A DNA stretch of 64,000 nt from Candidatus Parcubacteria bacterium (GCA_009995385.1 JAACPT010000002.1:759-64758); one strand, 5' to 3'. Positions 1 through 32,530 are shown, counted from the first letter of the stretch. Numbers and translations are program-made. Notes: generated by a model from the letters alone, not told the origin.

Positions 1-3000
1 GACCATTGTTAAAGGATATTGGACCAACGGTTGGATCAAATGCCAGCGTGAGTTCTGGAAGTTTTGCGTATGAATCTAATGTGGAGCCACCATCAGTAAC
101 TCGGAAACAGTACGCATCATTGACAGCATTAGTAGTCAGTTTAATTACATACTCAAGCTCAATGTATTTATTTTGATCAACATTAATTGCTGTTGATTGA
201 TTACTGGTATCAGCCACAATCTGACCTGGTACAAAGGCACCTGCAGCGGTGAGCAAATGATCAGTAGTCGGACTGCCAGTAGTGACATTTGCAGAGGTAG
301 TCATGCAGATTGCGGACGTACCACAACTAGCGAGGTTCGGTACTGCGGTAAATGAACCACTAGTAACTGCTTCACAACTTGGTGCAGCAAGTTTCGGCGC
401 AAACTCCAGGCGGAAATTTTGGTTAGTAATCGGCAATCCTGTATTTTCAATACCAATACGAAGTCGAGCGGTTTCATCAAAGAGGAAGCCACCGGTTGGC
501 GTATTTTGCGCAGCTGCCCAACTTGCGCCCCCTTGTAACTGTTCGGCACCGAGATACACCACTGGTTGCGTCGCGGTACGTGGCCACGAGATGTAGCTAT
601 CCCAGCCGCCATTTTGACCCCAGAAGGTAAAGCCAAACCCACCACTGGTGTATGTACTATCGGTCGCAGACGTCGTTGCTGCCAGAGATCCCGTAGCATC
701 AAAAACAGCCACATCAATACTGTTATTTGTCTGCCAATCTATCTCAATCTCGTACCATCCAGTTACAAGACTGATGCTAGAGGAAGCGAGTACTGTTCCT
801 GTAGAATCAGTATTTTGCACATTTTCAACTAATGAAACTCGGTCAGTTCCAAATTGCTCTAGACAGACACCGTAATTCTGATTTGCTGTTACTGGCGATT
901 GTACAGCAAACAATGTACAGACTTCATCGGCACTGCCAACGGTGGTATCTACATATTGCATATAGCGGATGATCTCACCTTGAGAAATCGTGAAATCAGT
1001 GCGTCCGATTCCATCAGTTGTTTTGTCATTTGGGTTTGGAGAGGCGTACAGACCGTAGCCACCACCATAGGCGAAGGTGCCAGTGGTGCCAAATTTTGCA
1101 GTATCACCCGAATACTCAGTGAGGTTGTTATCATCAAAATCATCATACGCATTGAACACATCACTGATCTCGCTCGTGGTCGTTGCCGTATTATTACCGT
1201 AGTACAAGTAGAGTTCAGTGACAGTATCAGCATTCATGGTTGGAACTTTTACCCAGAACTGTGCAGCAGTTGCCGTCGTGTATTGCTCGCGCCAATAGCT
1301 GAGTGTTGTCGTCCCACTAGCATCAGTGAAGCGAACGTCATCAAAATCAGTTTGCATATCAGTGTCATAGGCAACTTCAACTTTAACAGCGACATCAGTA
1401 TAAGTGGTAGCGTCTTCGTTGACTACTCGTACGCGCTTTCGAGCAGCCCAATTTGAATCAAACCAAGTTCCTGGTGCTGCACCTTCTCCACCGTCGTCAT
1501 TACGCCAACGATAGGTCGCTTGTTCGGTGAGGAGACACTGACTATCATCCCAACGAATCGAACTACAATCATCAGTGCCATCGACGTCGTATGATTCTCC
1601 CCACAAGTTGCCGCTAGCGCCTGTAATAAGCCAACTGTTAGTCGTAGTAGCATCAAGAGAGATGTTTGTTCCAGCTACAAAGCCACCAGTAGCAAATCGA
1701 GTATTAGTAACCACGAGAGAAGCATTAGTGTTTAGTGCTGTGGAGACTAGCGTAATAAGTGTTGCACTATCACTTGCTTGTTCAAAATCACCCAGGGAAA
1801 GAGAACCAATTGTAGCTGTACCAAGTATTTGTAACCCATCAGCGTCTAGGTTGCGGAAGCGATAGTATTCAGCGTCAAATATCCCCGCAGAAGCGGTAAA
1901 CGTATATATACCAGTACCTTGGTTTGACACAGTACTAGTACTGTTAGCCGATCCAAGCATATGGAGAGTACCACCATCGACTGTCACCGTCGATCCACCA
2001 GCAATTGCTACCGACGCCGCCCGTGGTGATCCACCAAGCGCTGCGCCATCAAAGTCTGTTGCGTAGCTCCAATGTTCCGTTGTAGTAGCAATGTGGTAAT
2101 CACCAAAGATATACAAGCTACCGTTCACCGCGTTATGATCTTGTGAATACAGAGAACCAGAAGACGCGACAATAGTTGTCGTGGCTGAAGAATTCCACAT
2201 ACTAATATCAGTGTTTGTGCCCACTTCCAGAATGTTATACCGTTCAGTTGCAACTGCTTTACCACTGACCTCGTACTCGGTACCACTACCTAGTACCACT
2301 TGTGTACCGTTCCAGTTTGTTGCCGTACCGCCTACGTTGTTTGTAAATACTCCACCGATATATAAGCGGGTACCGGAACTCATGGTGAATGAACTAGCCG
2401 CAGCAAGACTAAAATTATTGGTCGTGGTAGCGTTGTCGACAATCGTCCAACCACCATTCACACTACCAAAGACGACGTCATAAAGATCATTTGTACCAGT
2501 ATCAATAAATTCTCCTGTGTTAGCAGAATTAAAGAGGAGTGTACCGTTACTTGAAATAAAGGTACCACCAGATACATCAAATGATCCACCAACTGACACT
2601 GTACCAGTTCCTACCGTCAGTTGACCACTCTGAAGGAAGAGGTCACCAAGAAATGCTGCCCCTGCATCAGTCATCGTGTAGTCCCCAGTACCAGCAATAA
2701 TTTTAAGATTATTTAATGTATTACCTTTTAGGGTAAATAGGTTACCACCACCCGTACCAATGAGATTGACTGAACCTCCAGCGTGTACGACAGATCCCTG
2801 CACAATAAAGTTATCTCCTACAGTCAGTGTTCCCGTCGGTAGGGTCACCGTACCAGCACTAACGGTGAAGGAATTAGTCGTCGTCGCGTTAGTATCAGCA
2901 ATTATCCAGCTTCCACCAGTTCCATTAAAGCGTACCGTTGCAGTATCTGAACCATTGAAGCGAACAACGTTACCAACGTCAGTTGCGGTAAAGTACAACA

Positions 3001-6000
3001 ATCCACTATTGGCGACAAAGCTTCCGCCGGTAATATCGAATGTACCACCAATTGTTGTCGTCGCACTTGGTAGTGTGACCGAACCAGCTGACTGTATATA
3101 ATCTCCAACTACCAACAACGCCGGATCAGCCACTGTCCAACTTCCAGCACCAGTGAATGACAAGTTATAGAAACCTGCATTATTACTGTCTATAGTTCGT
3201 GCCGTACCTGTAGTAGTGAAAGTAACCGTCGATTGTGCTGGAGTAAATACCGCACCAGTACCAGTAAGAAGGCTGCCACCAATAGAATGTACTTGACCAT
3301 TAGCCGCCGTAAAGGTTGCGCCGGCTCGTAATTCAAGTGTTCCATCATAATCAGTTCCAGCACCTCCACCAGAAACAGTAACATTTCCACCAGGAGTAAA
3401 CTTCTTATTATTCCAGACAATAAGCTTTGTGTTTGCTGGAAGGACAAGAGTATTAGTACCAGCAGTCTCCGTATTGAAAAGGATATCTGCATCATTATCA
3501 CTATCCCAAGTACTCATGTCAGCAATGGTCATCGGGGCACTACTTTCATGGGTAAGGATGACTCGATTTTCATAGAGATCAAGACCACTAATTGAAGAGA
3601 CCGGGTCTTGGGTAACGGTCACTGCTTTTTCTGATTCACCTTTAATGTACACCGTAAGTGTGTTACCAACTCCGTACCCAACACCAACAAAACTGTAAGC
3701 GCCAGTACCGACAGCACACGTCGTAGAAGCAAACGTTAAACCTTGAATACTTAACCACACATTCTTGGTAGTACCATCACACGCCGCCGAAGCAGTAACC
3801 CCTTCATCGCTATACACTGCTCCTGAAATATTAATAATTGCGGCAGAATCTTCCCAAGTAAGGTAACCAGGATCGCCGGCGGGATCAACGTCCTTTGCCT
3901 CCCCACCGAGATTTCCCTGGACATTCACAAAGCGCCAGGCACTAGCACTCGTTCCCGTCGCCGTGACATTGTACGCATTGATGGCGGTAGTAGTAGCCAT
4001 TCGAATATCGGTAAAGTTGAGCGCCGGATTAGCGGTAATCACACTACCACCAACAGTCATCGTCGAGCCATCTGCGATAGCTACTTCGAGATCGCCATGG
4101 GAAAGGTTGAGAATATGTGGTGCCCCAGTGAATATAAGACCAGCACTGGTTGTATCGCGGACTACATAGTTACTCATTTCGACTTCTGTATCACCACCAA
4201 TAGTAAGTTCGTATGTTCCAGATGTTTGTGCCGCTATCGTCGTAGAAGCTGAACTGGTACCTATAATATAGAGGGAACCGCTTGGGTACTGAGCTGTCCC
4301 ACCTGCTTCAATGTAGACTGAAGCCTGTCGTGGTACACCAAGAGAAGCACCATCAAAATCTGTAGCGTAGCTCCAATAATCAGAGTACCCTTCATTGACA
4401 TAGTCACCAAAGATATAGAGCTCTCCCGTAACGTCACGATGATTCATTGAGTACAACGAACTCACTCCATTGGTAGTGACGACAGTGGTAGTTGAGTTCC
4501 AGAGACGTGGGTGAGTGCCGCTCGCGGTGACGATAGTGTCGTATGTGTCACTAGTTGTTTTAGTGTTCATCACGAATGCAGTTCCACTATAGAAACTAAG
4601 TGTAGTATCGGTCCAAGTGGTACTGTCATCAGTCATAGTATTACTAAAAGCACCACCTACCGCTAGCGTCAGTCCCGGATTAAGGGTGAACGAACCAGTC
4701 GTAATTGTTAGATTACCAGTGGACGTAGCATTTTCAGTCACCGTGTACGCTGCAGAACCGAGCACGTTGAGCACCGCGAATGGAGAATCGCCTGCTGTAA
4801 TTGTTGCAGATCCACCAACTTTTGAAAAAGTAACGGTACCGCCATTAGCGTTGAAAATACCATCATTTTCCCAGTTTCCATTAACTGTCAGTGTTTTATT
4901 ATTACTAGCTTCGAGTGTACCAAGAGAACCAATAAGTACATTATTCCCAACTGAAAAAGTAGGATCGTTTGTATTGGCATTTAGAGTAGAGGTACCTAAC
5001 ACACCAATAGTTAAGTTGTTGAGTATCTGCAGTCCCGTAGTCGGCGCCGTGGCAGTCACCGTACCACCACGATCAGTGTCAATCACAACATTGTAATATG
5101 GAGTTTGTTTGATATTTGGAGTTGTCCCACTGAAGCGGATAGTACTCATATCTTCAATGAACGTACCTGTCTCGACAAATACATTGCCATTTCCTTGTAA
5201 ATCCCACAACGAATTACCTGCGGCAAGGAAGTGTGCGGCAGCGATGGTGAGTGTGCCACGAACTGACGTCGTAGCAGTACTAGCCGGCGTCGTGATACCA
5301 GCCACCGCACCACTACCGAGAGTTAGGTTGTTAAACGTCCAAGGGCGCATGCCACCTAAAGTATTGGTCTTTTTGAGCAATGTCGTCCCACCAGTGAAAT
5401 CAACTGTTCCATTACCAGAGAATGAGCCATCATTGATAGTAACATTTGCTACCCCTGAAACAGTACCAGTGGCTACTAAAATACCCGTTTCAGAAATCAA
5501 TGGTGTTTGAATTGCCCAGTTACCACCAACACCAGTAAAGGAGACGTCATATAAAGTAATCGTTGAACTAGCGGCTGCACCAATTGATTGCCCTGGATTT
5601 GTGGCCGTAAAATCTACGGTACTAGCAGAACCAGAAAACGTCGCTCCCGTTTCTAGATAGAGTGAACCACCAATCGTGATGTCATCGGAACTATGCGCTT
5701 GCAATATACTTGACTGTTTGAGCAGCAACGAACCATCGGCGGGAGTACTACCAGCGCCGAGAAGCGCAACCGCACCACCGGTAGTAAATGTTTTATCGTT
5801 CCAGATGACTAATCCACTACCTGATTGTACAGAAAGTAAATCAGGTACTCCGGTTGCTGCTGTAAATGGTAGGTCACTGTCATTATCATGGTCAAATACC
5901 ACCATGTCAGCAATAGTGAGAGCATCCACATTCTCATGACGAACGATTACTCTGTTTTGGTAGAGATCCATGTCACTGATCGTGTCAGCTACAGACACCG

Positions 6001-9000
6001 CCGCTGGTCGAAGGGCAAACTGCCCGACGTTGACATCATCAACACTACCATTAGTCATAGTAGCATCGCTAGTTGCACCAGCAGAAACCATAGTACGTCC
6101 CGACACGGCTAGCAGTCGATTATTAATCATGACGTCTTGCGCCAACGTCAACCAAGGACTAGCTGGCATATCCATAGCATTATCATCAATCACATACCAT
6201 GAAGCTAATACATAGGCACCAGGTGTCACCGTGTTAATACTTGGAGCCGTTGGTGAAGAAACATTCTGGAGATTACTCCACACTGGTGTTACATCAAAGA
6301 CGTTTGTCGCATCAACCCCACTGAATGAGCCAATCCAGTAGGAGAACTCTTCGACTCCGTCGTCATTGCTAATGAAGCTGTACGATACTGGCTCACTGCC
6401 TGCATTAGTTACAACGTGATACCAGACACCGGTATACATCGCGTTTCCAACGCTTTGAATAAGGTCATCCCCTTGTGTCCAGCCACCTGGCGGCGTTACA
6501 ATGAAATCATCCTCCTTACCAAGGATTGCTACCAGCACATCACCATTTTCAACTGCCGGTCGATTGATATCAATTGCTGCAGCCGCCGCTACTGTGCCAT
6601 AGGCATTTTTTTGGTCACGCAGTGCAATGGTGTTGTACGGTGAACCGCTATTACCAATCGGTGTCTTGGTAACTGCGGCGGCAACCATTGAGCTCGAACC
6701 CGTCGGACCAGTGGACGGACGGAACGCAAATTGCCCAACGTGTGATTCGCGCGTAGCAATGACACCACTCAACGACACATCACCAGTCGCTCCAGCAGTC
6801 AGCATTGATCGCGAAGATACAGTAAGATTACCACTTTCAGGATTAACAATATTATTTGCTCGATCGAACCAGTTATACACTGGCGCAACCACCTGTGTAT
6901 CGAGGTAGGTATACCACGCTGATAGCACTAGCGCTCCATTGGTAACAGTGGTGATACTTGGTGCTGTTGGTTCAAACTGATTTTGTACCTTGGTCCACGT
7001 ACTGGCAACATCAATCGGTGTGACGGTGTCGACATTGATGAGTGCACCCATCCAAAAACTAAACCCTTCGCCGTTGTCAGCAGTAAAGTTGTACGTCGTC
7101 GGTTCCGTTCCAGCATCAGTGACCACACGATACCAAATGCCCGTATCAATCTGGTCACCAGTGGTATTTCCAAGGGTGTTTATTGCAGTCCACCCAACCG
7201 GAGCAGTAATCAGTGGATCATCATCCTTACCAGCAATAAGTACAAGAACTGAACCGTCGACCACACTTGGTCTATTGACTGTCATCACCACCCCAGCAAC
7301 AGTACCTGTACCAGTAATCTCATCGTATATCTGCACATTCGTTTGCGGTGTCGCCGCTTCACTGTTGAGGTAAGTAACAATCTGTGGTTCACCAGTGTAA
7401 GAAATACCACTGACAGAGAAACTACCATCAAGCGGATTACATGAAGCAGTATATGTTGTCATTCCATCAAGCACGACAGTTACGACTTCGGTAGAACCGT
7501 TACAAACAGGGTATGTCGCCGGAGTGACCCCGTCATCATTGTAGACTGTCCCTGAAATAGTGACGGAAAAATTACTGTCATCCCACTGGATTGATCCTGG
7601 ATTACCGTCATCATTATCATGTTCTTCTCCATAGAGATTTCCAGTACCGCCTGAGAAAAGCCAGAAAGTGGCGGGAACACCGTCAGTCGTAACATTGTAA
7701 GAGAAAGTTTCAGCCGAACTCGTCGCGTAGAATGAGGTGGCATCCGTGAAGTTACGATATTCAGCATCAATGCGATTAGCCGAAGGTGGCGTGACTGAGA
7801 AGCGAAGTTCATCAATATCCATGTCTCCGTACGTAGTGGTCTGATAGGCACCAATTCGCAAGCCAGTGTTAGTTGGATTTTGAGCACTAAGTAACTGAGT
7901 CACTGAGTCACGCAGTATATTGTCTTCATATATTTCACTAACCTCTCCAGCAGTGGCGCGTCCTATAGTAGTAAAGTGATGCCATGAAGCAGCATTTCTC
8001 GTGAAGGAGTAGTCGGTACCACTAGTCATACCAAAACGGAAGTACCCACGAGTCGTATTGTTATACCAGGGCATAAAGGAAAGGTACGTACCATTATCAC
8101 TGCCACTACCATCGCCAAATTGCCAAAGCGCACTGGTATCAAAGTTAGCCATGCGGTACAGACCTGAAGAGACAAGGTCATCACCAGGGGTCCAGGTCCA
8201 GGTAAGGTTTTCTAGTTTAACATTGTTAGCCGCGGTAGTATCAAGCGCAGTTCCGACTAATCCAGTCGTAGTAGCTGGAGTACCACTTGTTGGGAACAAA
8301 TTATGACCGTTCCCTGTCATGTCGGTGATACTAATAGTAGGATTTTCATTAAAGTGGTACACCGCTTCATAGTTCGCCCAGACTGCCTGTCTACCATACT
8401 GATTAGTAGCACCATACGCGGCAGCAGCTGGATTATTAAAATGAATATAAAAGACGGTATTAGCAGTATTACTAATGGCTGAAGCAAGAAAGTACAATTC
8501 TCCAGTTTTAGTAGTAGTATTAATCTCCACTAAATCTATTGGCAGTTCAACACCACCGTCAGTGGTGACACGGATATCTCGACCATCGCTTTGTACCCCA
8601 TTCCAAAACGCTGTACCAAGATGTGAAAGATTTACATACACTGGGTAATTTACGAGATCCTCATTTACCGCATCGGCATCAATCGTAAGCACTATCTGAT
8701 CACTCCACGCTGGTTCATAAATACCGTTTGCAGTAGTAGTCGCAAATACGATGTTCGTAAATTCTGACGATGGTTGAGTGTTAACTGTAGCAGCATCGAC
8801 AGTGATACCACTCCGACCTCCTGCAACACCAAATTCAACGGCAGTGAGTGTATTCACCGTCGTGCCATTAGTTAGGGACAATCCTTTTGGACCCATATCG
8901 GTAAAAGATGCGTACTCCGTATTGAGCGTTCCCGCGTTTACCGTAAGCGAATAAATACCAGAAATTGCTGCCACGGTAGTAGTTGCACCCGCAGCACCCT

Positions 9001-12000
9001 TTGCCACCAGCGTAGTGCTAGTTGCTAGATAGATACTTGCGCCTCGACCAATTTCAACACTTACTGTTCGTTCACCGCCACCGACTAAACTGGTACCGTC
9101 AAAGTCTGTATCGCGACTCCAGTATTCAGTACCACTAGTACGTTCGTAGGCACCATAAATCCTCAAGGTACCATTTACACCATTAAAGTCTGGCATATAG
9201 AGAGAAGAAGTGTCCCTAATAGTTGAAGTACTAACGCTCGAATTCCACATGACAAGGTCTGAATCATTAGATACCACCAGTGTCGCGTAATCGTCACCAA
9301 AGTCAAGACGGTTGGTGACCGTGTAATCGCCACCTGAAAGCACTAATATACTATCATCCCAAGTTGTTGCAGCTTCATTAAAACTATTCCTAAAGATTCC
9401 CGCTACCGTGAGCATTGTCCCCGGTGCTAGAGTAAAATCAGCACCCGTAATGAGGGTAGCGTCATTGAGAACAGTCGTCGTCGCTATAGTCCAGCCACCA
9501 CCGACACCATTGAAACTCAAGTTGTAAAAGGCACCATCTCCGAAAGCAACAGTTTCGCCAACATCAGTACTATTAAACGTGGTAGTGGCATTGTTTGGAT
9601 TATACGAACCATTGCTATTAAACGCTGAACCACCGATTGAGAAATTGCTACTTGGTGCCACCAGATTAGCGTAGTAAATCTTCACATCACCAGTAGCGAC
9701 AGTAGTAGCTTCGTCAAGTGTGTATGAAGGCACCACCTCTAGATATGATTGCGTCGAGGTGCTGTAAAAACTCTTGACGGCAGTGAGGTTACGATATTCG
9801 GTCGTTATCCATTGCTGACTGCGAGTAGTACTAGCAAAGCGCAGTTCGTCAATCTTGATGTTCATGTACGTTCCCGCAGTGTATCGACCGAGTTGCAAAC
9901 CAGTGTTGGTCGGATTTTGTGCCGGAACAGTCTGGAGTACTGAACCACGAAGGATACTATCTTCAAAAATTTGATTAGCTTGTCCAGCCGTCGCTCGACC
10001 GTTAGTAGTAAAGTGGTGCCAAATTGTCCCATTACGTGAAAAGGTGTACGTGTCAGCCGTGGTGACACCAAAACGGTGATATCCAGTGGTCCTTGTATAC
10101 CACGGCAGGAATGCCAAGCAGGTACCATTGTTCGCTCCACAGACGGTACCAAACTCCCAAAGTGCTCCATCATCAACTGCACTTTGGTAATAGAGACCAG
10201 ATGAAACAAGATCCTCACCTGCTGTCCAAGTCCAACCGGAATTACCAACCATGACGTTACCACCAGTGAGATCAAGAGCGTCACCAACTAGACCGACGGT
10301 GCTGACTGGCGTACCAACGAGTGGCGATAGATTCCTTCCATTACCAGACATATCAGGTACACCAGTAGTTGGGTCTCCGTTAAAGTGATACACCGCCTCA
10401 TACTCAGTCCAAACTGCGTTGGCGCCATACACGCTATCAGTGGCAGGCGCCTCGGCGGCCGCATTATCAAAATACACATAGAAGGTAGTGTCGACTACTG
10501 GTGACAGTGATGGTGCTAAGAAATGAAGCTCTCCCGTTTTGAGACCAACACTAATATCTACTAGGTCGATTGGTAGTTCTGTCTTACCATCGCTACTGGT
10601 CATGCGAATGTCTCGACCATCCACCGCAACCTTCGCCCAGAAACTATTACCCATAGTGCTGAGGTCAAGATAAACAGGAAAATCGGTAACCATTCCCGCA
10701 ACTGAAGTAGAAGCTACTTTGATCACCATTCGTTCTCCCCAAGCCGAGTTGTACCAGCCAAACGCTGGGTCATCATTTCCAAAAATAACGGTATTGAATG
10801 ATGAACCCTTCGTAGAGATACTTTCACTCTCTACTGAAGTGAAATGAATAGTCCCCGCATTGGCATTGAATCCTCCAGCGTTTACATCCAAGAAACCACC
10901 GACCGCTAGCACTCCAGTTGGGAAGACCACCGTACCGTTATTAATAGTGATGTTATTACTGGTAGTTGCGTTGCTATCAGCAAATGTCCATGAGCCACTA
11001 CCATTAAAGACTACGTTATATAACCCGTTGTAAAATTCCGTACCATGTAATTCGATAGTTTCTGCAGCAGTACTGTTAAAAGTAACTTGCCCATTATTGT
11101 GCATGAAGTATCCATTGTTTGTGAGCGAACCACCGATGGTAAGCACTCCAGTTGGAAACGCTACGGTGCCCGTCGCGATGGTGAGATCATTAGTAATTGT
11201 CACTGATGGTTCAGTGAAAGCAGGTGAAGTAGTCGCATCATTAAATATCAGGTTGTAGAACGGTGAACCACCAGCATCAATCCTATGTGAGGCTTCATCA
11301 ATTACTACATCTGGTGTGTATGATTGCACCGAACTTGTTGCATAAAATACCGTCGGTGTTTTTTGGTTGCTATATTCTGCCTCTACCCAATCACTGGTGC
11401 GGAGCACCGTACTAATACGCAATTCGTCAATTTGTGCTTGAAGAGAACCACCAGTGCCTTCTCGACCGACTTGGAGACCAGTCGCTCCGTTGTTGTACGG
11501 GTTTGCCACAGTCTGAGTAACACGTTCAACTTCAATCGAGTTTTGGTACACCAGATTGTCCTGACCAGTGGTGGTAGCACCAATGGTAGTGAAATGGAGC
11601 CAATTAGTAGTATCTCGAGGTGACTGTGCATACGTAGCATTAGCCGTTACTCCAAAGTAATGGAGTCCGTTGGTCGTCTGATACCACGGTCGGAACTCAA
11701 TACTATTCGGCGACGCAGCAGTTCCCCATTGCCACAGTGATTCATTACTAGCGGCTGGCATCTTGTACCAACCAGACGTGACTAGTGGATTACCAGCCGT
11801 CCAAGTAAAGCCAGCGTTACGCAAGATACCAGTTGAACCAATCAGGTTAATGCTTTGCCCTAATTGACCAGTAGAAGTTGCCAGGCCAGCCACTTCTACC
11901 AGTAGGTGGTTACCATTAGTGGTGGCATCATACACATAACTATCGACCGCGGTCGGATCGTCAACGAAGTGGTACACCGCTTCGTATTGGGACCATACTG

Positions 12001-15000
12001 CCTGACTACCATACGTATCGGTAGGATAGTATGCAGTAGCAGTAGCATTATTAAAATAGATAAAGAAGTAGGTGCTAGTCGCACTATCAACGCTATTAGT
12101 CAAGAAGTGTAACTCTCCTGTCTTGGTGACAGCATCAATGGCAACTAGATCATACGGCAGTTCAGTCTGACCATCTCCACTAGTGATGCGAATATCTCGA
12201 CCATCACTATGAACACTGTTCCAGAAATCATTACCAAGTGTAGAGAGGTCAATATAGACCGGGAAGTTGGTAAGCACACCAGGAATCTCAACTGGATTAG
12301 TTTCAATCATCAAACGACTGGTGAAATTACTATCTGCATACCAATCTTGTGAACCAGGCACAGTTGGTGGATACGTCCGATCATCATGTATCAGTTCTAC
12401 AGTGCCAGACTGTGCGCTAAAGATGCCATTATTTTCCCAATCCCCTGCTACATATATAGTTTTTCCAGAGGTTCCATTCAAACGATCATTAGTACCAATC
12501 CGAATATCATACGCACCGACATTAGTGAGAGCAGTCACGTTCGTGGAAGCACCATCAATTAGTACATCACCGACTTTCTGAGTGATTAAATTATCATCTC
12601 GCCAAGTCTTCGCGCCGGCACCATCAAAAGAGGTAGTTCCTAATCCTAGCCAAAAACCTCCCGTACCAGTAGTGAGATTCCCCGCTAAAGAAATTGCGAG
12701 CCCACTACGATCAAGTGTACCGCTAGCTACCGTAAGACTACCAGAAAGATCGAGACCCGCAGAAAGCGTAAAGACAGCATCACCTGCCCCACTACCAAAA
12801 CTAAGTGTGTGAAATACTAGTGGGCTTTCTGTGCTTGAAATTGACTCCGTGCCTGTGGCAGCTGTGAAGTTGATGGTGGCAGTATCGATAGATGATGTCG
12901 CATTGTTCTTCCATGAGCCGGTGACGATGACAGTGTTTGAATCAAGTTCAATCGTCCCGTCATTGATTACGTCGTGAGTAGTAACACTGGTACCACCCGC
13001 CGCTGCCGGTATGTATGTATTTCCAGGACCAATATAGATACTCGCATCACTACAAGCACCAACACTACAGACCACCAAATTATTAAAGGTATCAACATTA
13101 TAGAAAATATCTTCATCACCAGAAGTGAGATTGTCATATAAACCAAGTGACGCGTTGGTGACAGTCTCTTCTTCATCAGCAGAGATTGAGAGATGTTGCT
13201 CGAATAGTTCAACTCCAGTAATGTCTCCTGTTCCGTCATAGACAAAAACTCCTACTGCTTCTTCAGACTCTGTCGCTCCATCGACCCAGACAGTTACCGT
13301 GTCACCAGAAAAAGCGGTGATGTTACTCAGCGTCCACGAACCAGCAGCTACGGTCGCTGATCCTCCTACTGGAGTACCATTTACCGCTGCTCTAATAGTA
13401 CCAGTAGCAACAGCAGTGAGACGATCATATTCCTTGAGCGTTCCTGACATATTAACTCCCTCACTCCACTCCAACTGCCAATCATTGATCTGCGGACAAT
13501 TCCCCCCCGAACAAGTCAGTGTTGCAACTGGACGAATGACTGGGTAGATATTTATATCGACACTTGTAAGGTCAATTGGACCAACAGAGGTACCAATACT
13601 ATTGCCTGGAATAATACTATTTGGAATGAGTGCATATATCCCAGGAGATACTTCGTACTCCATCTGGTAATAGACATCACTCACTCCTGGAGTACTGTCA
13701 TTCCAAGAAAAATTATCATATTTTGGACCAGCGCCATCGGTGAAAATAATATTTTCACCCGCAACAGTCCCCGAGAGTCCGCTGGCAGCATATCGTTTCA
13801 AAACACCCGAGGTGTTTTCAAAAGCAAAAGCAAGTATTCGCTCAATTGTGTGCGCACGATCAGCAGGAACGTCTTCGTCAATAAATGGATAGTAGTTATT
13901 AGTAGTCGGAATGGTTGCCGCATACAGACCGGCAAAACCGCCTTGTCCTCCTCTTTCTGAACCCTGTTGCACCAAGACTACTTCTGGCGCGCTAGAGAAA
14001 GGACTGAAAAAAGCCTCAGCAGTAGCTGGAGCTTCATCGTGCACAATCGCTGACACGTCAGCATCAAACTCACTGCCGTTGTTAGTACCATGCCCAGGTG
14101 CCATTACTATATAATCAACATCTTCAGGATCATGGATTGCCGTCTGCATACCACGTGCCAGATAGATACCCATACCACTGGCAGTTGGTTCATTGTTTCG
14201 TATATTTCCGTCGTTAAGACCGACTACCGCCCAGGTACTATCGTTATCGGATGAGATAGTTGCGACTACCGCTGGTGCAGCAGCAAAAGCGGGTGAAAAA
14301 GTAACATCTTCTCCATAACCACTGGCTGGATACGGATTTGCTACCACATCACTTACATTTGAAAAAGTGTTAGCAACAATTCGTTTGCCGGTACTACCAT
14401 CCTCGAGCACCCAATCACCACGTTCCACCACTAAGTAGTCAACCACCGTACTGCCCGTCGCGAGCCCTGCCGAATTGGTTACCAAAAGTTCAAAGGAAGT
14501 CGCTGTTTTATTACGAACTCGAGCGGAACGCGAAATGTCTCCAAGCGGGGTGTACCGTACTGAAGCGACAACGACAGGATTATTGTAAATTGACTGCAAG
14601 TCTATAGTGGTCCAAGTACCGTTTGTTACAGTTGTTTTACCGAATTCGCCGACTTTATCATTAACCACCACGGCATCAGCGGTTGTTGCAATCGTTCCAT
14701 TTAGCGTACCCTCTTCGAATTGCTCTTTCGTAGTCTGGAACCAGGTTGATACCGTAAGTCCCGTATCGACAGTGAAGGAATCTGGATTAGACCACGGTGA
14801 CCAACTATCGTCGCCGTTTGGATCTTTTGCGCGCACGCGCCACCAGTAGGTTTCGGTATTAATAAATGGGCTGCCCACCTGCGTAGTATAGGTGACCGTT
14901 GCACCAGAGGTAAACGGAGAGGCGTCACCTCCATTACCTGAATTAGCAAATCCTGCACTGGAGCTAGAATTATAAGTACTTGAACCAGTCAAAAATGTTT

Positions 15001-18000
15001 TATCAGTACTAAATGATATTTCGTACTCCAACTCATCGCTCTGTGGGTCAGTCGATACAAAATCAAACACCGGTAGTGTCTCAACCGTTTTTTGGTTATC
15101 AAAGAGATCACCGAGTATTGGTGTCTCTACTCGCAGACCCCAGCGAATAGTCCAATCCTGCAAAGAAAGTGTACTACCATCAAAAGTCGCCACTAGACGA
15201 AGTTCGTTATAAACAGCAGTATCAAGTTCACGAAGACTAATCGGAGCAATTGAAACACCGGTTGAGTTTCCAGGAAGTAAGGTATTCGGAATCAGCTGCC
15301 ATGAACCGCCATTTTTATACTCCACCTGAATTCGAATTTCACCTACAGTCTCAGTATCACTCCAATCAACCTCGCCCCAGGCGTTACCAACTACAGCCGT
15401 ATCAAAATCAACTGGTGTGCTGACCATCATGCCAAGTACTCCACTGGCACTGACTGCTCCTGCTGTCGTTGTAAGATTCGTCAGGGTATTAGTTGTAAAT
15501 TGCTCACCGGTGGTTTGGAACCATTCACTCGTCTGCAAATTTTGATTGGTCGTAAAGCTCGTTGGAAGAGACCACTCACTCGCCGTCGCTGAACCAAGTG
15601 GATCGGACGCTCGTACGCGCCACCAGTACGTGGTACTCGAAGCGACACTAGTTGGTGCGGTAAAACGGATAAGGTTACCAGAAGTAAACGGTGCTTTGTC
15701 TGACGGTAGTGTGACGTTTTCAAAGTTAAGTGGGTAAGCGGTTGAATTACGATCAATCTCGACACTCGCAAACGTCGGATCATCGTCTACTTGTACCTGG
15801 TATTGAATATCATCACTCGCCAAATCAATCGAAACAAATTCCAAGACTGGAGTCAAATCAGTAGTATGTTCATTGTCGAAATAAACAAGATTTGATGGTG
15901 TGTTTGGTGGACCAACAGTGATGAGCTCTGGATAAGTAGTGTACGTTGTTAGCTCGTGACCAGTTGCTCGAACCATGCGAAAACAGTAAGTAGTATTGAT
16001 ATCGACACTTACCGCCTCGATTACCCAATCCCATTCACCCACCTCACCAATTCCAATCTCATTTGGAATAAGGTTGGAGTAGTTACGTTCCTCGTACGAA
16101 GCTAGGACTGTCGAACTTGCGAGCGTCGTTGAAGACAACGTAGTACCATCCTCTAGGGTAGGATTGTTATACCCTCTAAATAGTGCTGTGGTGCTTCCGA
16201 TTTCACCAAGATCATGCCAAGAAGTGGCTGATGAACACTGCCCAACACCAGCAGCCGCTGCATATTGGAGTGTGAAGGCAGACGACTGTACTGTAGCGGT
16301 CGCCGTCGTGACTGCTAGGTTCATCCGTAAGCGCAAGATATCACCGTCATCGACTGCACCTGAACCGCTAATCGCTACACCTTCTTCAACATCTTCTGAA
16401 GCGTTAATCGGCCAACTTGAAGTTGGCGTCTGCAAAGTGGTATTTTCATACCACCTATACGACAATTGCTCCAGGTCATCATCGTATGTAATAATCGTCG
16501 CAGATTCTTGTGCACCAAAGCCAATAAGACGATTGGTGACACCGTCGAACTTTCTCGCCTGCACTGAACCAAGGATATTCTTTTCATCTTGTTCTACATT
16601 GACGTCCTCGTAAATAACGTAGAACGGCTTGCCATTTGTAGAAACAATCTGGTGACCAGCGGTGAAGTTGATTGCATCCCCATTAGTACCATTACCATGA
16701 TTAAAATATGCTTTACCAGGATTATTTCCAACTGGAGAACAGGTGGCACTTTCCACTAAATTACCTGCGCTGTCCTGCACCTCTAGCGCGACATCGCCAA
16801 AACGCGGTGAACAAACCACTGCCGCATACGCTGCATCATTGGTCATAAAGTATCTCGTTCCAAATTCGTGCTGTGGCCAAAAAACAGTCGCTTCATTACC
16901 ATCACCGTCAGCCATTTGCACTGCAGAAATCGGCTGAATAGCACCAGTAAATCGTACTGCCGAACCGGCGCCTTCAGCGGCTGTGGTACATTGCGTAATA
17001 TCGTCTTTTTCACCTCTGGTAGTGCCAGTAGTCGCACCGCCAGTACCAACTGAACAGTAAACGGTTGCATCAGGATTATCAGCGGTAGCCGATAAATGGA
17101 AGTAGTTCGAATCAACACCAAAGAGGTCTCGAGTGGTCGGTGGATAAGCCACAATGCCATCCCCCGGGTTGGTCGTACGATGCATCAAAAGCACCGGACT
17201 AGTAGCTTCTACTACTATACCGTTTCCATCTACCCCGGAACCAGAATCAGTTGGATCTGTAGTCGATGTTGAAGCGGTATTTTTTGGGATGACAATAGTT
17301 TGACTAGCTGTGCCACTGTTACCTATGTAGGTAGAAACGGTGGTAGTAGCAAACGGAGCGTGAATGTACCAGCGATCAGCAGCTCGGTTCAGTGGTACAG
17401 CAAAGGTGGTGGTAGCAAAGCTAATAGGCGCAAGCGTATCGCTACTATCAGTGCTATTACCAGTTACCGTGCCAGAAATCGGCCCAAGTGTACTGATAAT
17501 TGAGCTACCCGTGAACGTAGCAAAAGTGGTGCGCTCACCCTGATTGAGCGGCACAGGTGTCCCACCATCAATCGAGACTGCATTGCCGTCAATCAAACTT
17601 TGTACCGAAATACTTGTCGCGCCAGAGTCATCAACAACGTAGTACAGGTCGGTACTGGTGCTGTAGCTAAAAGTTGCTAACTCATCACTTGCAGAAGTAG
17701 CACCAGTACTTCCATAATACATATATATAGTAGTTTCCTCTCCAGCCGGAATACTATCCACCTGAACCCAAATATCTGCTTGGTCACTAGTGTTATCAAA
17801 ATGTTGCACCCAGAAATCAAGCTCAACGAAATCAGTAATCGCGAGATCCTCAGCCGATGACGTAGCCACAAAACTAGACACATTGTTCATGTTTGCGTAC
17901 TCTACAGCCAGCCAATTTTTATTGCGTACGACACTAGCAAACCGCAATTCATCGAGCTGACCCTCAAAGTTTTGGTTGTTTTGGAATCCACCGCCGAGCG

Positions 18001-21000
18001 AATCTTGCTCTTGTCCCACAATAAGACCACCATTAGCAATCGAAAGCGGAGCAATAGGTTGTGGGTCAGGGTTTTCTGTATCACCAACACCATTGACGTA
18101 AAAATTGACTTCGTCAATTGCGTCTTCACCGGTCACAGCAAAAAAGTTCCAGCTGCCCGTATTATGGGTGCCAATGGTATCAGAAAGACCAAAGCTTTCA
18201 AAAGCGTTTTGATAAAACAACTGAAGATTACTTGTATTACTAAAGTATATAATGTACTCGTTAGAACCAGCTGCGGTATTATCTTTGGCTCCTGACACAA
18301 TCGTCTGAGCTCCTCCGATGGTCGTCTGGTGCCACCATGAAGTGGTCAGGTTTGATACTCCATTCAGAACCTCACGAGGTAAGATTAAGTAATCATTCTG
18401 ATCATCGCCAAATTCTTGCCCTTTCCCAAACAGACCAACTTTACTGTTCGAAGTATTGTAGTCATCACCATCATACTGATTGCTGGTTGAATCTTTATAG
18501 AGATTGAGGTTACTGGTCCCTACCGCATCTTCCTCGAGGTGATATACCGCTAGGTAATTATTGGTCCAGACATTATTAGAACCATAGGTACTCGTACGAC
18601 TGTATGGCAATGCATCTTCATTTTGGTAGTAGATATAAAAATCGTTGGCAGCGTTTCTATTAAGATTTGTCTTAAAATACAACTCACCAGAATTGGTGCC
18701 TTTATCAATAGATACTAACTCGAATGGTAGCTCGGTGACTCCGTCTCCCGTGGTGATACGGATATCTCTACCGTCAGTCTTTACCGCACTAAAGAACTCA
18801 GTCCCAAACATTGAGAGATCTATATATACAGGGAAATCAGTCAGATTCGCACTAATCTTTGCTTGTGGAATTGAGAATTTCAATCTCTTTCCCCAGCTAG
18901 TGCTATACCAAGTGAGATTGGCTGCATTATCTGGCACTTGTGAATCACCGATCGAATAGAAATGTGTTGGATCAGAGAGATTGCTGGTTTCTAGCCTCAC
19001 ACGTTCATCGGTTCTAGTAGTGAGCGCAACACGGAGTTCATCAACCTGACCGTTCCACCAAGTGTTGGTGCCAGTGCGAGCAACACTGAATCCACCAGCG
19101 CCGGTATTGGTTGGATTACCCACTGTTTGTGGTACTGATTCTATCAGCACTCCATCTTCAAAAACTAAGTTGTTTCCAGAAATTGAAGTAGTACCAACTG
19201 TACCAAAAGCACTCCAAGTAGAGGTAGCTCGGGCAAGCGTATATGTTGCACCACCAGTAGCACCAAAGTAATGGAGACCGGTAGCTGCAGTATTAAGACC
19301 GGTATACCAAGGCCGGAACTCCATATCGTCTGGTTGGTTAGCAGTACCCCACTGCCATAAAGCTGAGTTACTCACAACCGGCATACGGTAAAGACCAGTA
19401 ATGACGAGTGGGTCACCACCAGGGAAAGTCCAAGTTGTAGAAGCCAAGTATCCAGATACTGCCGTAAAGTCATACGCTGTTCCCATCTGACCAGTAGTCG
19501 TCGCAGGAGCAGCAGTGATGACTGTTAGGTCGTGACCGTACCCTGTTTCATCAGTAAGCACATTACCAACCGTAGATGGATTATCACTGAAGTGATATAC
19601 CGCCTGATAGCCCGCCCCAGTCCAAACTGCCTGCGATCCAGATGGATCGCTAGAAGCATACCCTGACGCAGCAGTATTATCGTAATACACGTAGAAGGTA
19701 TTAGCAGCATGAGCAGCGATTGCTGACGCTAGGAAATGTAACTCCCCCGTTTGCGCCGTTGTGTTTATCTCCACCAAATCTATTGGTAGTTCAGTTCCAT
19801 CACTGGTCGTCACTCTAATATCACCACCATCACTTTTCACCCCTGCCCAAAAACCGGCATCAAAAAGTGAGAGGTCCACATAGACTGGGAAATTGCTTTG
19901 ATCTTCAGTCACCGTCAGTGGCGGGATAGTGATGGCGACTCGACCGCCAAAGCTCGGGTCAAACCAATTCGTCTGCGCAGTGCCAGCATTACTAAAGTTG
20001 CCAGTAGACACCTGCTGTGCAAAGCGAATATCACTTCCATCGGCTGCTACATTGTTCCAAAAATCAGTCAGTGCACTACTAATTTCCAAAAATACCTGGT
20101 ATTCAGAAAGATCAGTCGTACCATTGGTGTTATCAATAGTGATTGGCATCCGGTAGCTCCAGTCTGATGTCCAAAATGGGTCAAGAAGTCCATACTCACT
20201 GTTACCAATTACTTCAATCCAGTATTCCCCATTTGAAAACGGTGGAAAAGCAATGTCCATCTTGAAGTACTTTGTTTCTCCTGGCTCAATCAGGTACGTA
20301 CCAGGAGTATGGGCACGTACTTCAAATTCCGCCGGAACATCTTTTTTATCTGGTCCCAACCCAACAAACTGAGCAATTTTACGAAGAACCCCTGGTCGTG
20401 GTTGTTCCCCCGCTGCAGTAGCTATCTTTTCCCATCCTGGTTCATATCGAGTCATATTATGCTCCGCAACTTTGACATCAAGCATGACACAGGCGGTATT
20501 AGCACCATCTAGCTCGTCACATTCACGAACCACATTAGTATTTCGACACGAATACGCTGGTATCTGATCTTCGACTGCAATGATTTCCTTACTCTCTATG
20601 ACACGCTCAATACCTGCTTCCTCTTCGAAAACCAGTGCAGTGGTTGTAGCAATTTCTTCACTCGTGACCTCTAGAGTGGAAGTACTTTCGGAGGAAATCG
20701 GTAAGACTGACCTACTACTTGCTTCTGCAAGTACTGCATCCTCAGCGAGTTGGCGCGAGAGAGCGTCTAGACTTTCGGGTAACTGCTCACCTACGTATTC
20801 CCAACCCGCCTCGCAATGGTACACATATGGTCGATACTCAGGGATTACTGCGGTACGTGGTTTATTCTGGTTGAACATCTCAAGTGAGACTACCTCTCCA
20901 ACTTCTCGCGGGAAGTAGGTTTGAATAGAGAATTCTTCTGCCTTCGAAGCAGTATTGGTCACACTAAAATAGGTGGCTACTTCAGAAAGTCCTTGGTAGG

Positions 21001-22543: not shown

Positions 22544-22596
22544 TTTTCTGCATAGTAGCCTCACTTCAGAGATGAAGTGGACTGTATATAAGTATA

Positions 22597-22623
22597 CCGC
22601 CCAACTACAGTGTAGTTGGGCGG
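22597..22623 (-). terminator. Perfect 13-bp inverted repeat (ccgcccaactaca g tgtagttgggcgg) between the stop of the cohesin-like gene and the start of the giant gene. It is a putative intrinsic terminator or attenuator.
   Basis: Read directly from the sequence. On the minus strand it is followed by the AT-rich stretch 'tatacttatatac'. Confidence 0.4.
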
Positions 22624-22656
22624 TTATCCTCATATTTTATTAGGTTTTTCTTAAAT

Positions 22657-24195: not shown

Positions 24196-24215
24196 AAGGA
24201 ACAAAAACTTAAGCG

Positions 24216-24695
24216 TTAATTCGTGCGTTTGGGTAAGCCGCGACCACCAGTAACTTTTAGTTGCACTTTTTCTTTTTCACTTGGTTTTAAGAGTGGTAAA
24301 ATGAGTATCAGTACACCATTCTTTATCTTTGCTTCCGCTTGATCGATATTAACACTTTCTGGCAAAATGATGCGACGATAGAAATCTCCCCAAATACATT
24401 CCTCGGCAACATACGAACCCTTCACATTTTTTTTTGGGAACACAATGTATTCAGGGCGTATGCGCTTCCCTTCTATCAAGACAATATCGGCATCACCCTC
24501 AATTGAGACGTGAACATCATTCATATCGGCACCTGCTGACTGAGCATACACCACGATCATACGCTCGGTTTGATACACATCAACATGAAGTTGCGCTACC
24601 TTGTCAACTGCCGTTTCTTCAGCATCAGACAACAGCGACGCATCTTCGTTGCGTACCCCTTTACCTTTTAATCTCTGCAGAAAGGACATATACAA
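24216..24695 (-). CDS. Hsp20/alpha-crystallin family small heat-shock protein.
   Basis: Alpha-crystallin domain signature 'GDFYRRIILPESVNIDQAEAKIKNGVLILILP'. Confidence 0.85.
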   Translation of the reverse strand: MYMSFLQRLKGKGVRNEDASLLSDAEETAVDKVAQLHVDVYQTERMIVVYAQSAGADMNDVHVSIEGDADIVLIEGKRIRPEYIVFPKKNVKGSYVAEECIWGDFYRRIILPESVNIDQAEAKIKNGVLILILPLLKPSEKEKVQLKVTGGRGLPKRTN

Positions 24696-24991
24696 CTATT
24701 ATACTTACTTTTATTTACAGAAAGGATATTTACCCACACATTACCATCTATTGAAACGTTCCCATTCCTTGAAACCGAATCGTCCCCTGGAATTGATGTC
24801 TGGAATATTTTTGCGTCGCAGCTTCGGATATGATGACGTACACCCGACCTTGATAAGAGTTATATCGATGCCACTCATTCGCTTATTTTAGCATGATAGA
24901 AAGGGGTTTTTGAAGCGGGGGAAAAGCTGATTAAATAGAGAAACTATTTTACTCACCAAAAACACCGAGTCTATGGAATCGGTGTTTTCGT

Positions 24992-31246: not shown

Positions 31247-31264
31247 GCTAATAGTATAGCAAAA

Positions 31265-31287
31265 CGGCGCGCCCGTAGGGCGCGCCG
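31265..31287 (-). terminator. GC-rich hairpin (cggcgcgccc gta gggcgcgccg) followed by TTTT on the minus strand. It is an intrinsic terminator after the GH18 gene.
   Basis: Read directly from the sequence. Confidence 0.6.
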
Positions 31288-31300
31288 ATGTACTGCGTAC

Positions 31301-32500: not shown

Positions 32501-32530
32501 ATACGTACAGACGTGAAGGAGGCTGCACTC

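What the first reader, a model, noticed from the sequence alone, without database searches (positions are those of the whole stretch)
8300..20100. At least seven diverged tandem DUF2341-like and LamG-like modules inside the giant gene, in two clusters
The core motif 'F/YPVY(V/I/L)DLS...FW..V..DGRDIR.T..DG.TELP.(D/E)LV.I...T.TGEL.F...FY.YY.N' recurs seven times within 8300..20100; an eighth variant lies near 1250..1450. The plus-strand coordinates of the seven DGRDIR cores are approximately 20015-20043, 19805-19831, 18741-18777, ~17750 (variant), 12181-12207, 10596-10622 and 8565-8590. Each module is followed by a 'NVWT..Y.AVYHF' segment and ends in 'DELR(F/I)..(V/T).R...W...EY.N'. Nucleotide identity between the repeat units is only ~70-75%, so the duplications are old and not assembly artefacts. 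The repeats make the gene a substrate for recombinational length variation.
Basis: seen in the sequence. Interest (0 to 1): 0.6.

Follow-up and report, generated by a model that had tools for sequence, protein, structure and literature searches.

The report
Repeated lectin-like modules in giant gene
A roughly 7,800-residue surface protein of an ultrasmall (Patescibacteria/CPR) bacterium carries five old, diverged copies of a two-part DUF2341 + lectin-like (LamG) module, probably sugar-binding attachment units; the repeats are real, but this kind of protein has been noted before.

Summary

The anatomy needs correcting:
- There are five complete ~340-aa didomain modules: a DUF2341-like beta-sandwich plus a LamG/ConA-like jelly roll.
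- One further DUF2341 domain is split into two halves by nested insertion of modules 1 and 2.
- One canonical DUF2341 lies near the C-terminus.
- Only modules 1 and 2 are truly tandem.

Identity between modules is 30-53% at protein level and 44-57% at nucleotide level. The longest exact nucleotide match is 17 nt, so present-day homologous recombination is unlikely.

The gene belongs to a ~6,600-7,900-aa protein family found in at least 139 species-level Patescibacteria genomes. The nearest is Ca. Nomurabacteria, 73% identical in the C-terminal region. Module number differs between lineages (2, 4 or 5), including a clean whole-module indel. The M4/M5 duplication predates species divergence.

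Most likely role: a multivalent glycan-binding adhesin. Verdict: a new member of a known kind, of moderate interest.

The parts
2..22543 (-). Giant gene. The probable GTG start is at 22543; an alternative ATG lies at 22633. The 3' end runs off the window; about 245 codons are missing by comparison with homologue P0127.
   Evidence: The frame is open over 2..22636. The alignment to P0192 begins at aa 33. P0127 extends 245 aa beyond the window end.
22373..22444 (-). N-terminal hydrophobic segment (aa 65-88, KKFGTVITTFVLLLAVLLPYVHAQ): a signal peptide or membrane anchor, and the only such segment in the protein.
   Evidence: Kyte-Doolittle scan. The same feature is seen at the N-termini of P0127, P0131 and P0192.
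20018..20173 (-). First half of an outer DUF2341-like domain (aa 822-873, ending in DGSDIRF).
   Evidence: It matches positions 2-53 of the self-built HMM. Concatenated with the second half, it gives a contiguous Pfam DUF2341 match over profile positions 1-66.
18947..19966 (-). Module M1 (aa 891-1230): DUF2341-like N-domain plus LamG-like C-domain.
   Evidence: Pfam DUF2341 scores 24.7 bits, just above the gathering cut-off of 23.4.
17840..18910 (-). Module M2 (aa 1243-1599): DUF2341-like domain plus LamG domain. It is directly tandem to M1.
   Evidence: Pfam Laminin_G_3 scores 47.4 bits and Pentaxin 49.7 bits.
17666..17854 (-). Second half of the outer DUF2341 domain (aa 1595-1657, ELDFWVQ...IYMYYG).
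   Evidence: Pfam DUF2341 profile positions 14-66, 59.5 bits. It matches positions 47-104 of the self-built HMM.
11315..12343 (-). Module M3 (aa 3432-3774).
   Evidence: It is 50% identical to P0127's module at the collinear position.
9740..10756 (-). Module M4 (aa 3961-4299).
7700..8719 (-). Module M5 (aa 4640-4979). It is absent from homologue P0127 as a clean one-module indel.
   Evidence: Orthologues in six Nomurabacteria-clade genomes.
1121..1465 (-). C-terminal canonical DUF2341 domain (aa 7058-7172). It is followed by a conserved C-terminal region, not by the LamG module type.
   Evidence: Pfam DUF2341 scores 75.7 bits over profile positions 1-76. Self-built HMM match.

Best explanation
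The region is part of one real, very large gene for a secreted or membrane-anchored surface protein. The full length is estimated at about 7,760 residues from the GTG start at 22543 (about 7,790 counted from the top of the open frame). The organism is a Patescibacteria (CPR) bacterium related to Candidatus Nomurabacteria.

**What is shown**
- The recurring motif marks a ~340-aa didomain cassette. It has a conserved DUF2341-like beta-sandwich fused rigidly to a sequence-variable LamG/ConA-like lectin jelly roll.
- The cassette is present in five full copies that arose by ancient duplication.
- Two of these copies sit as a nested insert inside the loop of a sixth, outer DUF2341 domain.
- A seventh DUF2341 lies near the C-terminus.
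- The taxon, the age of the duplications, and cassette gain, loss and replacement between lineages are also shown.

**What is inferred**
- The protein is exported through its N-terminal hydrophobic segment and projects from the cell as a long fibre.
- The five diverged lectin domains act as a multivalent, multi-specificity glycan-binding array. This array attaches the ultrasmall cell to the envelope polysaccharides of a host microbe or to polymeric substrates.
- Specificity resides in the variable LamG loops.
- Glycan binding and host attachment are inferred from the fold and from the literature. They were not demonstrated here.

Over evolutionary time the cassette has been gained, lost and replaced at several sites in the family. 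The present copies are too diverged to recombine readily.
For: **Gene and modules**
- One open frame spans the region.
- Five full N+C modules and three partial N-domain matches are detected.
- Database homologues of the module carry PF10102 + PF13385. The module profile matches 23,438 cluster representatives, many with 2-21 copies.

**Fold**
- The AlphaFold2 model of M4 has pLDDT 91.9 and pTM 0.92.
- Within modules the DUF2341 part is conserved (1.3-1.5 bits column entropy). The LamG body is variable (2.3-2.95 bits, with indels).

**Surface location**
- The only hydrophobic segment is N-terminal. The composition is Thr/Gly/Ser-rich and Cys-poor.

**Family and evolution**
- The protein is collinear with P0127 at about 50% identity, apart from a clean M5 indel.
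- Family members carry 2-5 modules.
- Module orthology and paralogy were resolved.
- All best genome hits are Patescibacteria, the nearest being Ca. Nomurabacteria at 73%.

**Nested insertion**
- The two HMM halves are complementary, and the concatenate gives a contiguous Pfam match.
- In relatives the same halves flank 1-2 modules or a different insert.
- The domain is unsplit at the equivalent position in the distant homologue P0254.

**Literature**
- Patescibacteria proteins over 4,000 aa often carry FhaB and/or DUF2341 domains and are proposed adhesins (PMC11809585).
- DUF2341 occurs in pilus-associated adhesins (PMC4858521).
- ConA/LamG proteins are proposed CPR/DPANN attachment factors (PMC11310336).
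Against: - No ligand, localisation or expression data exist.
- Four of the five LamG parts and four of the five DUF2341-like parts fall below Pfam's gathering scores when scanned alone. Family assignment therefore rests on transitive homology and the predicted fold.
- NCBIfam gives no match.
- The LamG fold also occurs in non-adhesive roles, such as enzyme accessory modules and structural proteins.
- The C-terminus is outside the window, so anchoring cannot be examined.
- The AlphaFold2 model of the nested region has low confidence on the outer halves, and their packing could not be read from the output.
Confidence: 0.6

Rival explanations
1. One reading: the repeats make the gene a contingency locus. 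Homologous recombination between copies currently generates length and copy-number variants between strains.
For: - Copy number differs between lineages, and there is a precise one-module indel against P0127.
- Our M4 is not orthologous to P0127's fourth module, which suggests a past replacement.
- Paralogue pairs cluster within single proteins in other lineages.
- PMC11809585 speculates on domain reshuffling by recombination in such proteins.
Against: - Nucleotide identity between modules is 44-57%, and the longest exact match is 17 nt.
- DNA-level similarity is detectable only in a ~90-nt core at 62-73%.
- There is no tandem DNA array.
- The M4+M5 arrangement is identical in six species-level genomes, and orthologues are more similar than paralogues, so the arrangement has been stable for a long time.
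- No strain-level relatives were found to test variation directly.
Confidence: 0.1
2. The modules are carbohydrate-binding modules of a cellulosome-like, cohesin-dockerin-assembled surface complex. This complex captures or degrades polysaccharides for nutrition, rather than serving as a cell-cell adhesin.
- A cohesin protein and a dockerin protein lie immediately upstream, with a GH18 protein nearby in the window.
- A dockerin protein is part of the conserved downstream cluster in relatives.
Against: - No catalytic, cohesin or dockerin domain was detected in the giant protein itself.
- Patescibacteria have minimal catabolic repertoires (established knowledge; PMC11809585).
- This reading overlaps with glycan-binding adhesion and does not exclude it.
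Confidence: 0.2
3. The protein is mainly a structural envelope or S-layer-like component. In this reading the repeated modules are architectural spacers without ligand specificity.
For: - The protein is a very long, beta-rich, Thr/Gly/Ser-rich polypeptide with a single N-terminal hydrophobic segment.
- It is conserved across at least 139 species-level genomes, next to a conserved ABC/FtsX cluster.
Against: - The LamG bodies are the most variable part of the modules while the scaffold is conserved. This pattern is typical of binding-site diversification.
- Module number varies from 2 to 5 among the ten full-length family proteins compared, and from 0 to 2 within the sampled C-terminal ~3,340 aa of 81 family loci. 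That is unexpected for a lattice component.
Confidence: 0.08
4. The repeats are an assembly artefact or a chance motif recurrence.
For: None found.
Against: - Domain E-values reach 1e-53 to 1e-110.
- The copies are diverged rather than collapsed or duplicated.
- Full-length collinearity with independent homologues, and orthologous modules in other genomes, rule out an artefact.
Confidence: 0.01

Closest known systems
Very large (>4,000 aa) Patescibacteria proteins carrying FhaB and/or DUF2341 domains (Dutkiewicz et al. 2024, ISME Commun., PMC11809585)
   Same: - Same phylum.
- Same size class.
- One to several DUF2341 domains at varying positions.
- Proposed role in adhesion or host interaction, with speculation about domain reshuffling.
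   Different: - That paper counted domains only. It did not define the DUF2341-LamG cassette, the nested insertion, or this orthologous family.
- Its focal proteins (ABY1 class) are FhaB-type and had no full-length homologues. Ours has more than 290 full-length-type relatives in genomes and metagenomes.
- Pfam reported no FhaB-type domain in our protein.
DUF2341 + Laminin_G_3 didomain proteins of ordinary size. These include COG5306/K12287 'MshQ'-labelled proteins, PilY-like pilus-tip adhesins, and the archaeal type IV pilus locus proteins of PMC4858521.
   Same: The didomain architecture is the same (PF10102 followed by PF13385), and these proteins are presumed to have an extracellular adhesive role.
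   Different: - Those proteins carry one or two copies in 350-1,200-aa proteins and are encoded in pilus loci.
- Here five copies are embedded in a ~7,800-aa protein.
- Among the window genes scanned, no pilus gene was identified.
- The N-terminus is not a conserved prepilin-type signal.
MotA/TolQ/ExbB-family proteins with DUF2341 (and LamG) appendages (PMC12505986; hits P0092, P0108, P0115, P0119)
   Same: The DUF2341-LamG module is homologous.
   Different: Pfam reported no MotA/ExbB channel domain (PF01618) in the giant protein.
Giant multi-module surface proteins of other host-dependent or symbiotic prokaryotes. Examples are the nanohaloarchaeal SPEARE-type LamG proteins, the Omnitrophota giant genes (bioRxiv 10.1101/2023.11.21.568195), and Apilactobacillus Giant1-5 (PMC12863079).
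   Same: - Proteins of thousands of residues.
- Repeated beta-sandwich or lectin modules.
- A small genome investing several percent of its coding capacity.
- A presumed cell-cell interaction role.
   Different: - No sequence relationship to these was tested or found here.
- The domain repertoires and taxa differ.
- The comparison to SPEARE rests on my own knowledge plus the titles listed.

Membership tests
Pfam DUF2341 (PF10102) | Score at or above the gathering threshold (23.4 bits) against the Pfam profile | tested here: inconclusive
   - Passing: the C-terminal copy (75.7 bits), the second half of the outer domain (59.5 bits; 64.9 when joined to its first half), and M1 (24.7 bits).
- Below threshold: M2 23.0, M3 21.1, M5 15.7, M4 14.4.
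- All align to profile positions 1-57/59, starting at the DG.DIR motif.
- Database homologues of the modules carry PF10102.
Pfam Laminin_G_3 (PF13385), ConA-like lectin/glucanase clan | Profile score at or above 27.6 bits | tested here: inconclusive
   M2 scores 47.4 bits and passes. M3 scores 17.8 bits. M1, M4 and M5 give no hit when scanned alone. All five align to each other over the whole C-domain, and their database homologues carry PF13385.
ConA-like / LamG jelly-roll fold | Predicted structure superposes on solved LamG, pentraxin or lectin jelly rolls | tested here: met
   - The AlphaFold2 model of M4 has pLDDT 91.9.
- Foldseek E-values are around 1e-8.
Tandem repeat array (DNA level) | Head-to-tail copies detectable as a periodic DNA array | tested here: not met
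   - Tandem Repeats Finder finds no array with the module period.
- Only M1 and M2 are adjacent.
- The other start-to-start spacings are 528, 679 and 2,189 aa.
Large Patescibacteria DUF2341/FhaB exoproteins (PMC11809585) | Length over 4,000 aa, at least one DUF2341 domain, and encoded by a Patescibacteria genome | tested here: met
   - At least 7,514 aa lie inside the window.
- DUF2341 hits are above threshold.
- The best genome relatives are all Patescibacteria, the nearest being Ca. Nomurabacteria at 73% identity.
- The taxon of the window itself is inferred from these relatives.
MshQ / type IV pilus-associated DUF2341 adhesins (K12287, COG5306) | Encoded in a type IV pilus (msh/pil) gene cluster | tested here: not met
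   Window ORFs of at least 150 aa that were scanned with Pfam include cohesin, dockerin, UmuC, GH18, CAP, sortase, BipA, GroEL and RNase J. No pilin, PilB/C/T or prepilin peptidase was found. Not every window ORF was scanned, so this is not an exhaustive search. The downstream cluster in relatives is fn3-ABC-FtsX.
MotA/ExbB-fused DUF2341 proteins | Presence of a PF01618 channel domain in the same protein | tested here: not met
   Pfam scans of the whole giant protein give no PF01618 match.
Gram-positive-type fibrillar adhesin | N-terminal export signal, a repetitive stalk, an adhesive domain, and a C-terminal LPXTG or wall anchor | tested here: inconclusive
   - An N-terminal hydrophobic segment is present.
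- Many internal repeats are present.
- Lectin-fold domains are present.
- The C-terminus is outside the window. The C-terminus of homologue P0127 shows no LPXTG on reading, although a sortase gene lies at 34379-35029.

The most novel reading that the evidence does not exclude
The DUF2341-LamG didomain behaves as a portable cassette. It has repeatedly been inserted (even nested inside another DUF2341 domain), lost and replaced within one orthologous ~7,000-7,900-aa protein. That protein heads a strongly conserved and, as far as my searches show, undescribed gene cluster. The cluster comprises the giant protein, an fn3 protein, a MacB-type ABC ATPase, an FtsX-like permease, two unknown ORFs and a dockerin protein. 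In this window, cohesin and dockerin proteins also lie upstream. The cluster is found across Paceibacteria-type Patescibacteria. It could be the principal host-attachment apparatus of this large group of uncultivated episymbionts, with host range tuned by cassette turnover.
Probability: 0.3. Interest if true: 0.65.

Novelty: new member of a known kind. Interest (0 to 1): 0.4.

Why it matters
Patescibacteria are a large share of bacterial diversity, yet how most of them recognise and hold on to hosts is unknown.

The gene's size points to its importance. Scaled to the ~1 Mb chromosome of the nearest relative, this one gene would take up about 2.3% of the genome. It is conserved in well over a hundred species. 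Its most variable parts are lectin-fold domains.

It is therefore a concrete candidate for the host-recognition molecule. The individual ~340-aa modules fold confidently in silico and are small enough to express and test on glycan arrays.

For genome annotation, the result shows that most of these modules fall just below Pfam thresholds. It also shows that a split (nested) DUF2341 can be miscounted as two domains.

Tried and rejected
- **blastp of the protein against itself** returned only the identity hit. It was replaced by tiled queries.
- **Strain-level relatives.** A metagenome scan with the M5 region found nothing. The second scan found nothing closer than 67% identity.
- **NCBIfam** gave no match for any part of the protein.
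- **PDB sequence search** gave only weak pentraxin hits to M2.
- **The afdb50 fold library** was unavailable.
- **AlphaFold2 of aa 815-1665**, run to test the nested insertion, gave pLDDT 78 and pTM 0.54 with low confidence on the outer halves. The tool output does not report contacts, so this test is inconclusive.
- **A prepilin-type signal** was considered for 'KKFG|TVITT' and rejected, because the motif is not conserved in homologues (reading).
- **A diversity-generating retroelement target** was considered. No reverse transcriptase was seen among the window proteins scanned, but not every ORF was scanned.
- **Literature searches** for this family under Nomurabacteria/giant, cohesin/dockerin/Parcubacteria and LamG/Patescibacteria found no description of it.


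Full report
**1. The observation**

The minus strand is open from window 22636 to 2 (7,545 codons), and the frame runs off the left edge. The probable start is the GTG at 22543, because alignment to homologue P0192 begins at aa 33. An ATG at 22633 is the alternative.

An HMM built from the aligned copies finds eight N-domain matches in one frame:
- aa 822-873
- aa 891-998
- aa 1243-1351
- aa 1595-1649
- aa 3432-3542
- aa 3961-4070
- aa 4640-4747
- aa 7058-7155

The same approach finds five C-domain matches: aa 1000-1230, 1352-1599, 3543-3774, 4071-4299 and 4748-4979. Domain E-values are about 1e-53 to 1e-55 for the five full N-domains and about 1e-91 to 1e-110 for the C-domains.

**2. Corrected anatomy**

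The unit is a ~340-aa didomain, and there are five complete copies (M1-M5). Only M1 and M2 are head-to-tail. M3, M4 and M5 are separated by 186- and 340-aa spacers, and M2 and M3 by about 1,830 aa.

The copy at aa 822-873 covers only HMM positions 2-53 and stops at 'DGSDIRF'. The '~17750 variant' (aa 1595-1657) covers HMM positions 47-104 and Pfam DUF2341 positions 14-66. The evidence that these are two halves of one domain is as follows:
- Joined in silico, they give one contiguous Pfam DUF2341 match (profile positions 1-66, 64.9 bits). The second half alone gives 59.5 bits and the first half alone gives nothing.
- In relatives the same two halves flank two modules (P0127, P0131), one module (P0190, P0192), or a different ~350-aa insert (P0167).
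- In the distant homologue P0254 the domain at the equivalent position reads as unsplit. In P0148 the equivalent region also reads as contiguous, but it gave no Pfam hit and no HMM match.

I therefore read M1+M2 as a nested insertion into a loop of an outer DUF2341 domain. An AlphaFold2 run on aa 815-1665 gave the expected strand pattern for both halves but low confidence, and no readable contacts. This point is inferred, not shown structurally.

The eighth copy (aa 7058-7172) is a canonical DUF2341 (75.7 bits). It is followed by a conserved C-terminal region, not by the LamG module type.

**3. Divergence**

Pairwise module identity is 30-53% at protein level. Codon-aligned nucleotide identity is 44-57%, and the longest exact nucleotide match is 17 nt. 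At DNA level only an 88-104-nt core around FPVY...DGRDIR is detectable, at 62-73%. Tandem Repeats Finder finds no array.

**4. What the module is**

- *Pfam on the whole protein* reports DUF2341, Laminin_G_3/Pentaxin (M2 only), an Ig_Rha78A_N-like repeat and a weak DUF4861 match.
- *Scanned alone,* the N-domains score 14.4-24.7 bits against DUF2341 (cut-off 23.4). Only M2's C-domain passes Laminin_G_3.
- *Homologues of the module* in the 5.8-billion-protein set carry PF10102 + PF13385. Some are fused to MotA/ExbB, and some are labelled COG5306/K12287 (MshQ).
- *An exhaustive profile search* finds 23,438 cluster representatives, many with 2-21 copies in proteins of up to ~7,900 aa.
- *Across 31 modules* from the family, the DUF2341-like part and the terminal 'AVYHF' and 'DELRF...EY.N' elements are conserved. 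The LamG body is variable and carries the indels.

**5. The gene, its family and its organism**

Ten full-length relatives (6,589-7,696 aa) share the N-terminal region, the overall order and the C-terminal region.

P0127 is collinear at about 50% identity. Our aa 366-4635 align to its 391-4626, and our aa 4980-7545 align to its 4630-7195. M5 (aa 4636-4979) is therefore a clean one-module indel, and about 245 residues are missing from our C-terminus.

A scan of GTDB species genomes with the conserved C-terminal region found 139 genomes. Nearly all of the 80 listed records carry Patescibacteria/CPR labels: Nomurabacteria, Kaiserbacteria, Paceibacterota, Adlerbacteria, Sungbacteria and Lloydbacteria. 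Many are generically labelled 'Saccharibacteria', and one record (L036) is labelled Acidimicrobiales. The best hit is Ca. Nomurabacteria HK-STAS-PATE-25, with a 0.99-Mb chromosome and 73% identity. A metagenome scan added 154 more contigs, none closer than 67%.

The rest of the window is ordinary chromosome: BipA, GroEL, RNase J, UmuC, a sigma factor, and tRNA-Ser.

The only hydrophobic segment in the giant protein is N-terminal (aa 65-88), and the composition is Thr/Gly/Ser-rich with 0.4% Cys.

**6. History of the copies**

Full-didomain counts in the family are 5 (ours, P0131), 4 (P0127, P0148) and 2 (six others). Among 81 loci where the gene fills the 10 kb upstream of the C-terminal anchor, 50 have none, 19 have one and 12 have two modules in that stretch.

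- M1, M2 and M3 are 48-52% identical to P0127's modules at the same positions, against 28-43% to the others. Those duplications therefore predate the split.
- M4 is only 31% identical to P0127's fourth module but 53% identical to M5. This implies a lineage-specific duplication or replacement.
- M4 and M5 each have positional orthologues in six Nomurabacteria-clade genomes, at 55-64% and 63-69%. In most of these comparisons that exceeds the 53% identity between the M4 and M5 paralogues within our protein. That event is therefore also old, and the arrangement has been stable since.

Evolutionary-scale cassette turnover is shown. Present-day recombinational instability is not supported. It could not be tested directly, because no strain-level relatives were found.

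**7. Mechanism**

The most likely reading is a surface fibre displaying several diverged lectin domains, which gives multivalent and possibly multi-specific glycan binding for attachment to a host cell or polymer. The steps shown are the fold, the repetition, the variability pattern, the N-terminal hydrophobic segment, the taxon and the conservation. The steps inferred are export, surface display, glycan binding and host attachment.

The literature supports the general idea. Large Patescibacteria proteins with FhaB and/or DUF2341 domains are proposed adhesins (PMC11809585). DUF2341 occurs in pilus-associated adhesins (PMC4858521). ConA/LamG proteins are proposed CPR/DPANN attachment factors (PMC11310336).

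They are weighed in the rival-explanations section.

**8. Context noticed along the way**

In relatives the giant gene is followed by an fn3 protein, a MacB-type ABC ATPase, a MacB_PCD/FtsX permease, two unknown ORFs and a dockerin protein. These are present in 120, 120, 116, 111, 91 and 81 of the 124 loci that have enough downstream sequence.

In our window, the genes immediately upstream are a cohesin protein, an Hsp20 and a Big_6 + dockerin protein. This suggests that the giant protein is one part of a conserved surface system.

**9. Verdict**

It is a new member of a known kind, namely giant multi-DUF2341 Patescibacteria exoproteins built from the widespread DUF2341-LamG didomain. The family-level conservation, the nested insertion and the conserved neighbouring cluster are the parts worth following up.

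Noticed in passing
window 17666-17854 and 20018-20173 (aa 1595-1657 and 822-873): These two 'copies' are complementary halves of one DUF2341 domain, split after DGSDIRF by nested insertion of modules M1 and M2. Relatives have 1-2 modules or a different insert at the same site. In the distant homologue P0254 the domain at the equivalent position is unsplit.
   Followed up: partly
L002 12266-20597 and 123 other family loci (the region downstream of the giant gene, beyond the window's left edge): A conserved gene cluster follows the giant gene: an fn3 protein, a MacB-type ABC ATPase, a MacB_PCD/FtsX permease, a 623-aa ORF, a 317-aa ORF and a dockerin protein. These are found in 120, 120, 116, 111, 91 and 81 of 124 loci respectively.
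   Followed up: partly
window 22657-26896 (minus strand): Three genes lie immediately upstream of the giant gene on the same strand: a cohesin-domain protein (22657-24204), an Hsp20 (24216-24695) and a Big_6 + dockerin protein (24992-26896). This may be a cohesin-dockerin surface assembly linked to the giant protein.
   Followed up: no
window 9740-10756 (M4) compared with P0127 aa 3949-4289: The module at the fourth position is not orthologous between our protein and its closest full-length homologue: 31% identity, against 53% to our own M5. This implies a module replacement or conversion in one lineage. The NJ tree shows similar within-protein paralogue pairs in P0254, P0199, P0131 and P0148.
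   Followed up: partly
window 2-22543, outside the modules: The giant protein contains several other diverged internal repeats with no Pfam assignment. Pairs include aa 2253-2395 / 2512-2656 (an fn3/Ig-like 'YWWRVRA' unit), 4305-4598 / 6653-6947, 5101-5308 / 5337-5545, 5552-5751 / 6348-6539, and 6005-6268 / 6772-7036.
   Followed up: no
window 29990-35029: This stretch encodes a UmuC-type polymerase (29990-31246), a GH18 glycosidase (31301-32500), a CAP/SCP-domain protein (33018-34172) and a sortase (34379-35029). The sortase is notable because the C-terminus of homologue P0127 shows no LPXTG motif.
   Followed up: no
L001 (JGI Ga0558718_01290), 2-10869: The homologous giant gene on this 126-kb contig is called as a string of short genes (264, 153, 578, 141 ... 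1,335 aa). Possible causes are frameshifts, sequencing errors or decay. It is still followed by the fn3 and ABC genes.
   Followed up: no
L036 and many loci from L008 to L080: Genome records labelled 'Acidimicrobiales' (L036) or 'uncultured Candidatus Saccharibacteria' carry this Paceibacteria-type gene and its cluster. The labels or the binning look unreliable.
   Followed up: no
window 7700-20173, within each module: The DUF2341-like half is the conserved part (column entropy 1.3-1.5 bits). The LamG body is the variable part (2.3-2.95 bits, with indels around M4 residues 201-220).
   Followed up: yes
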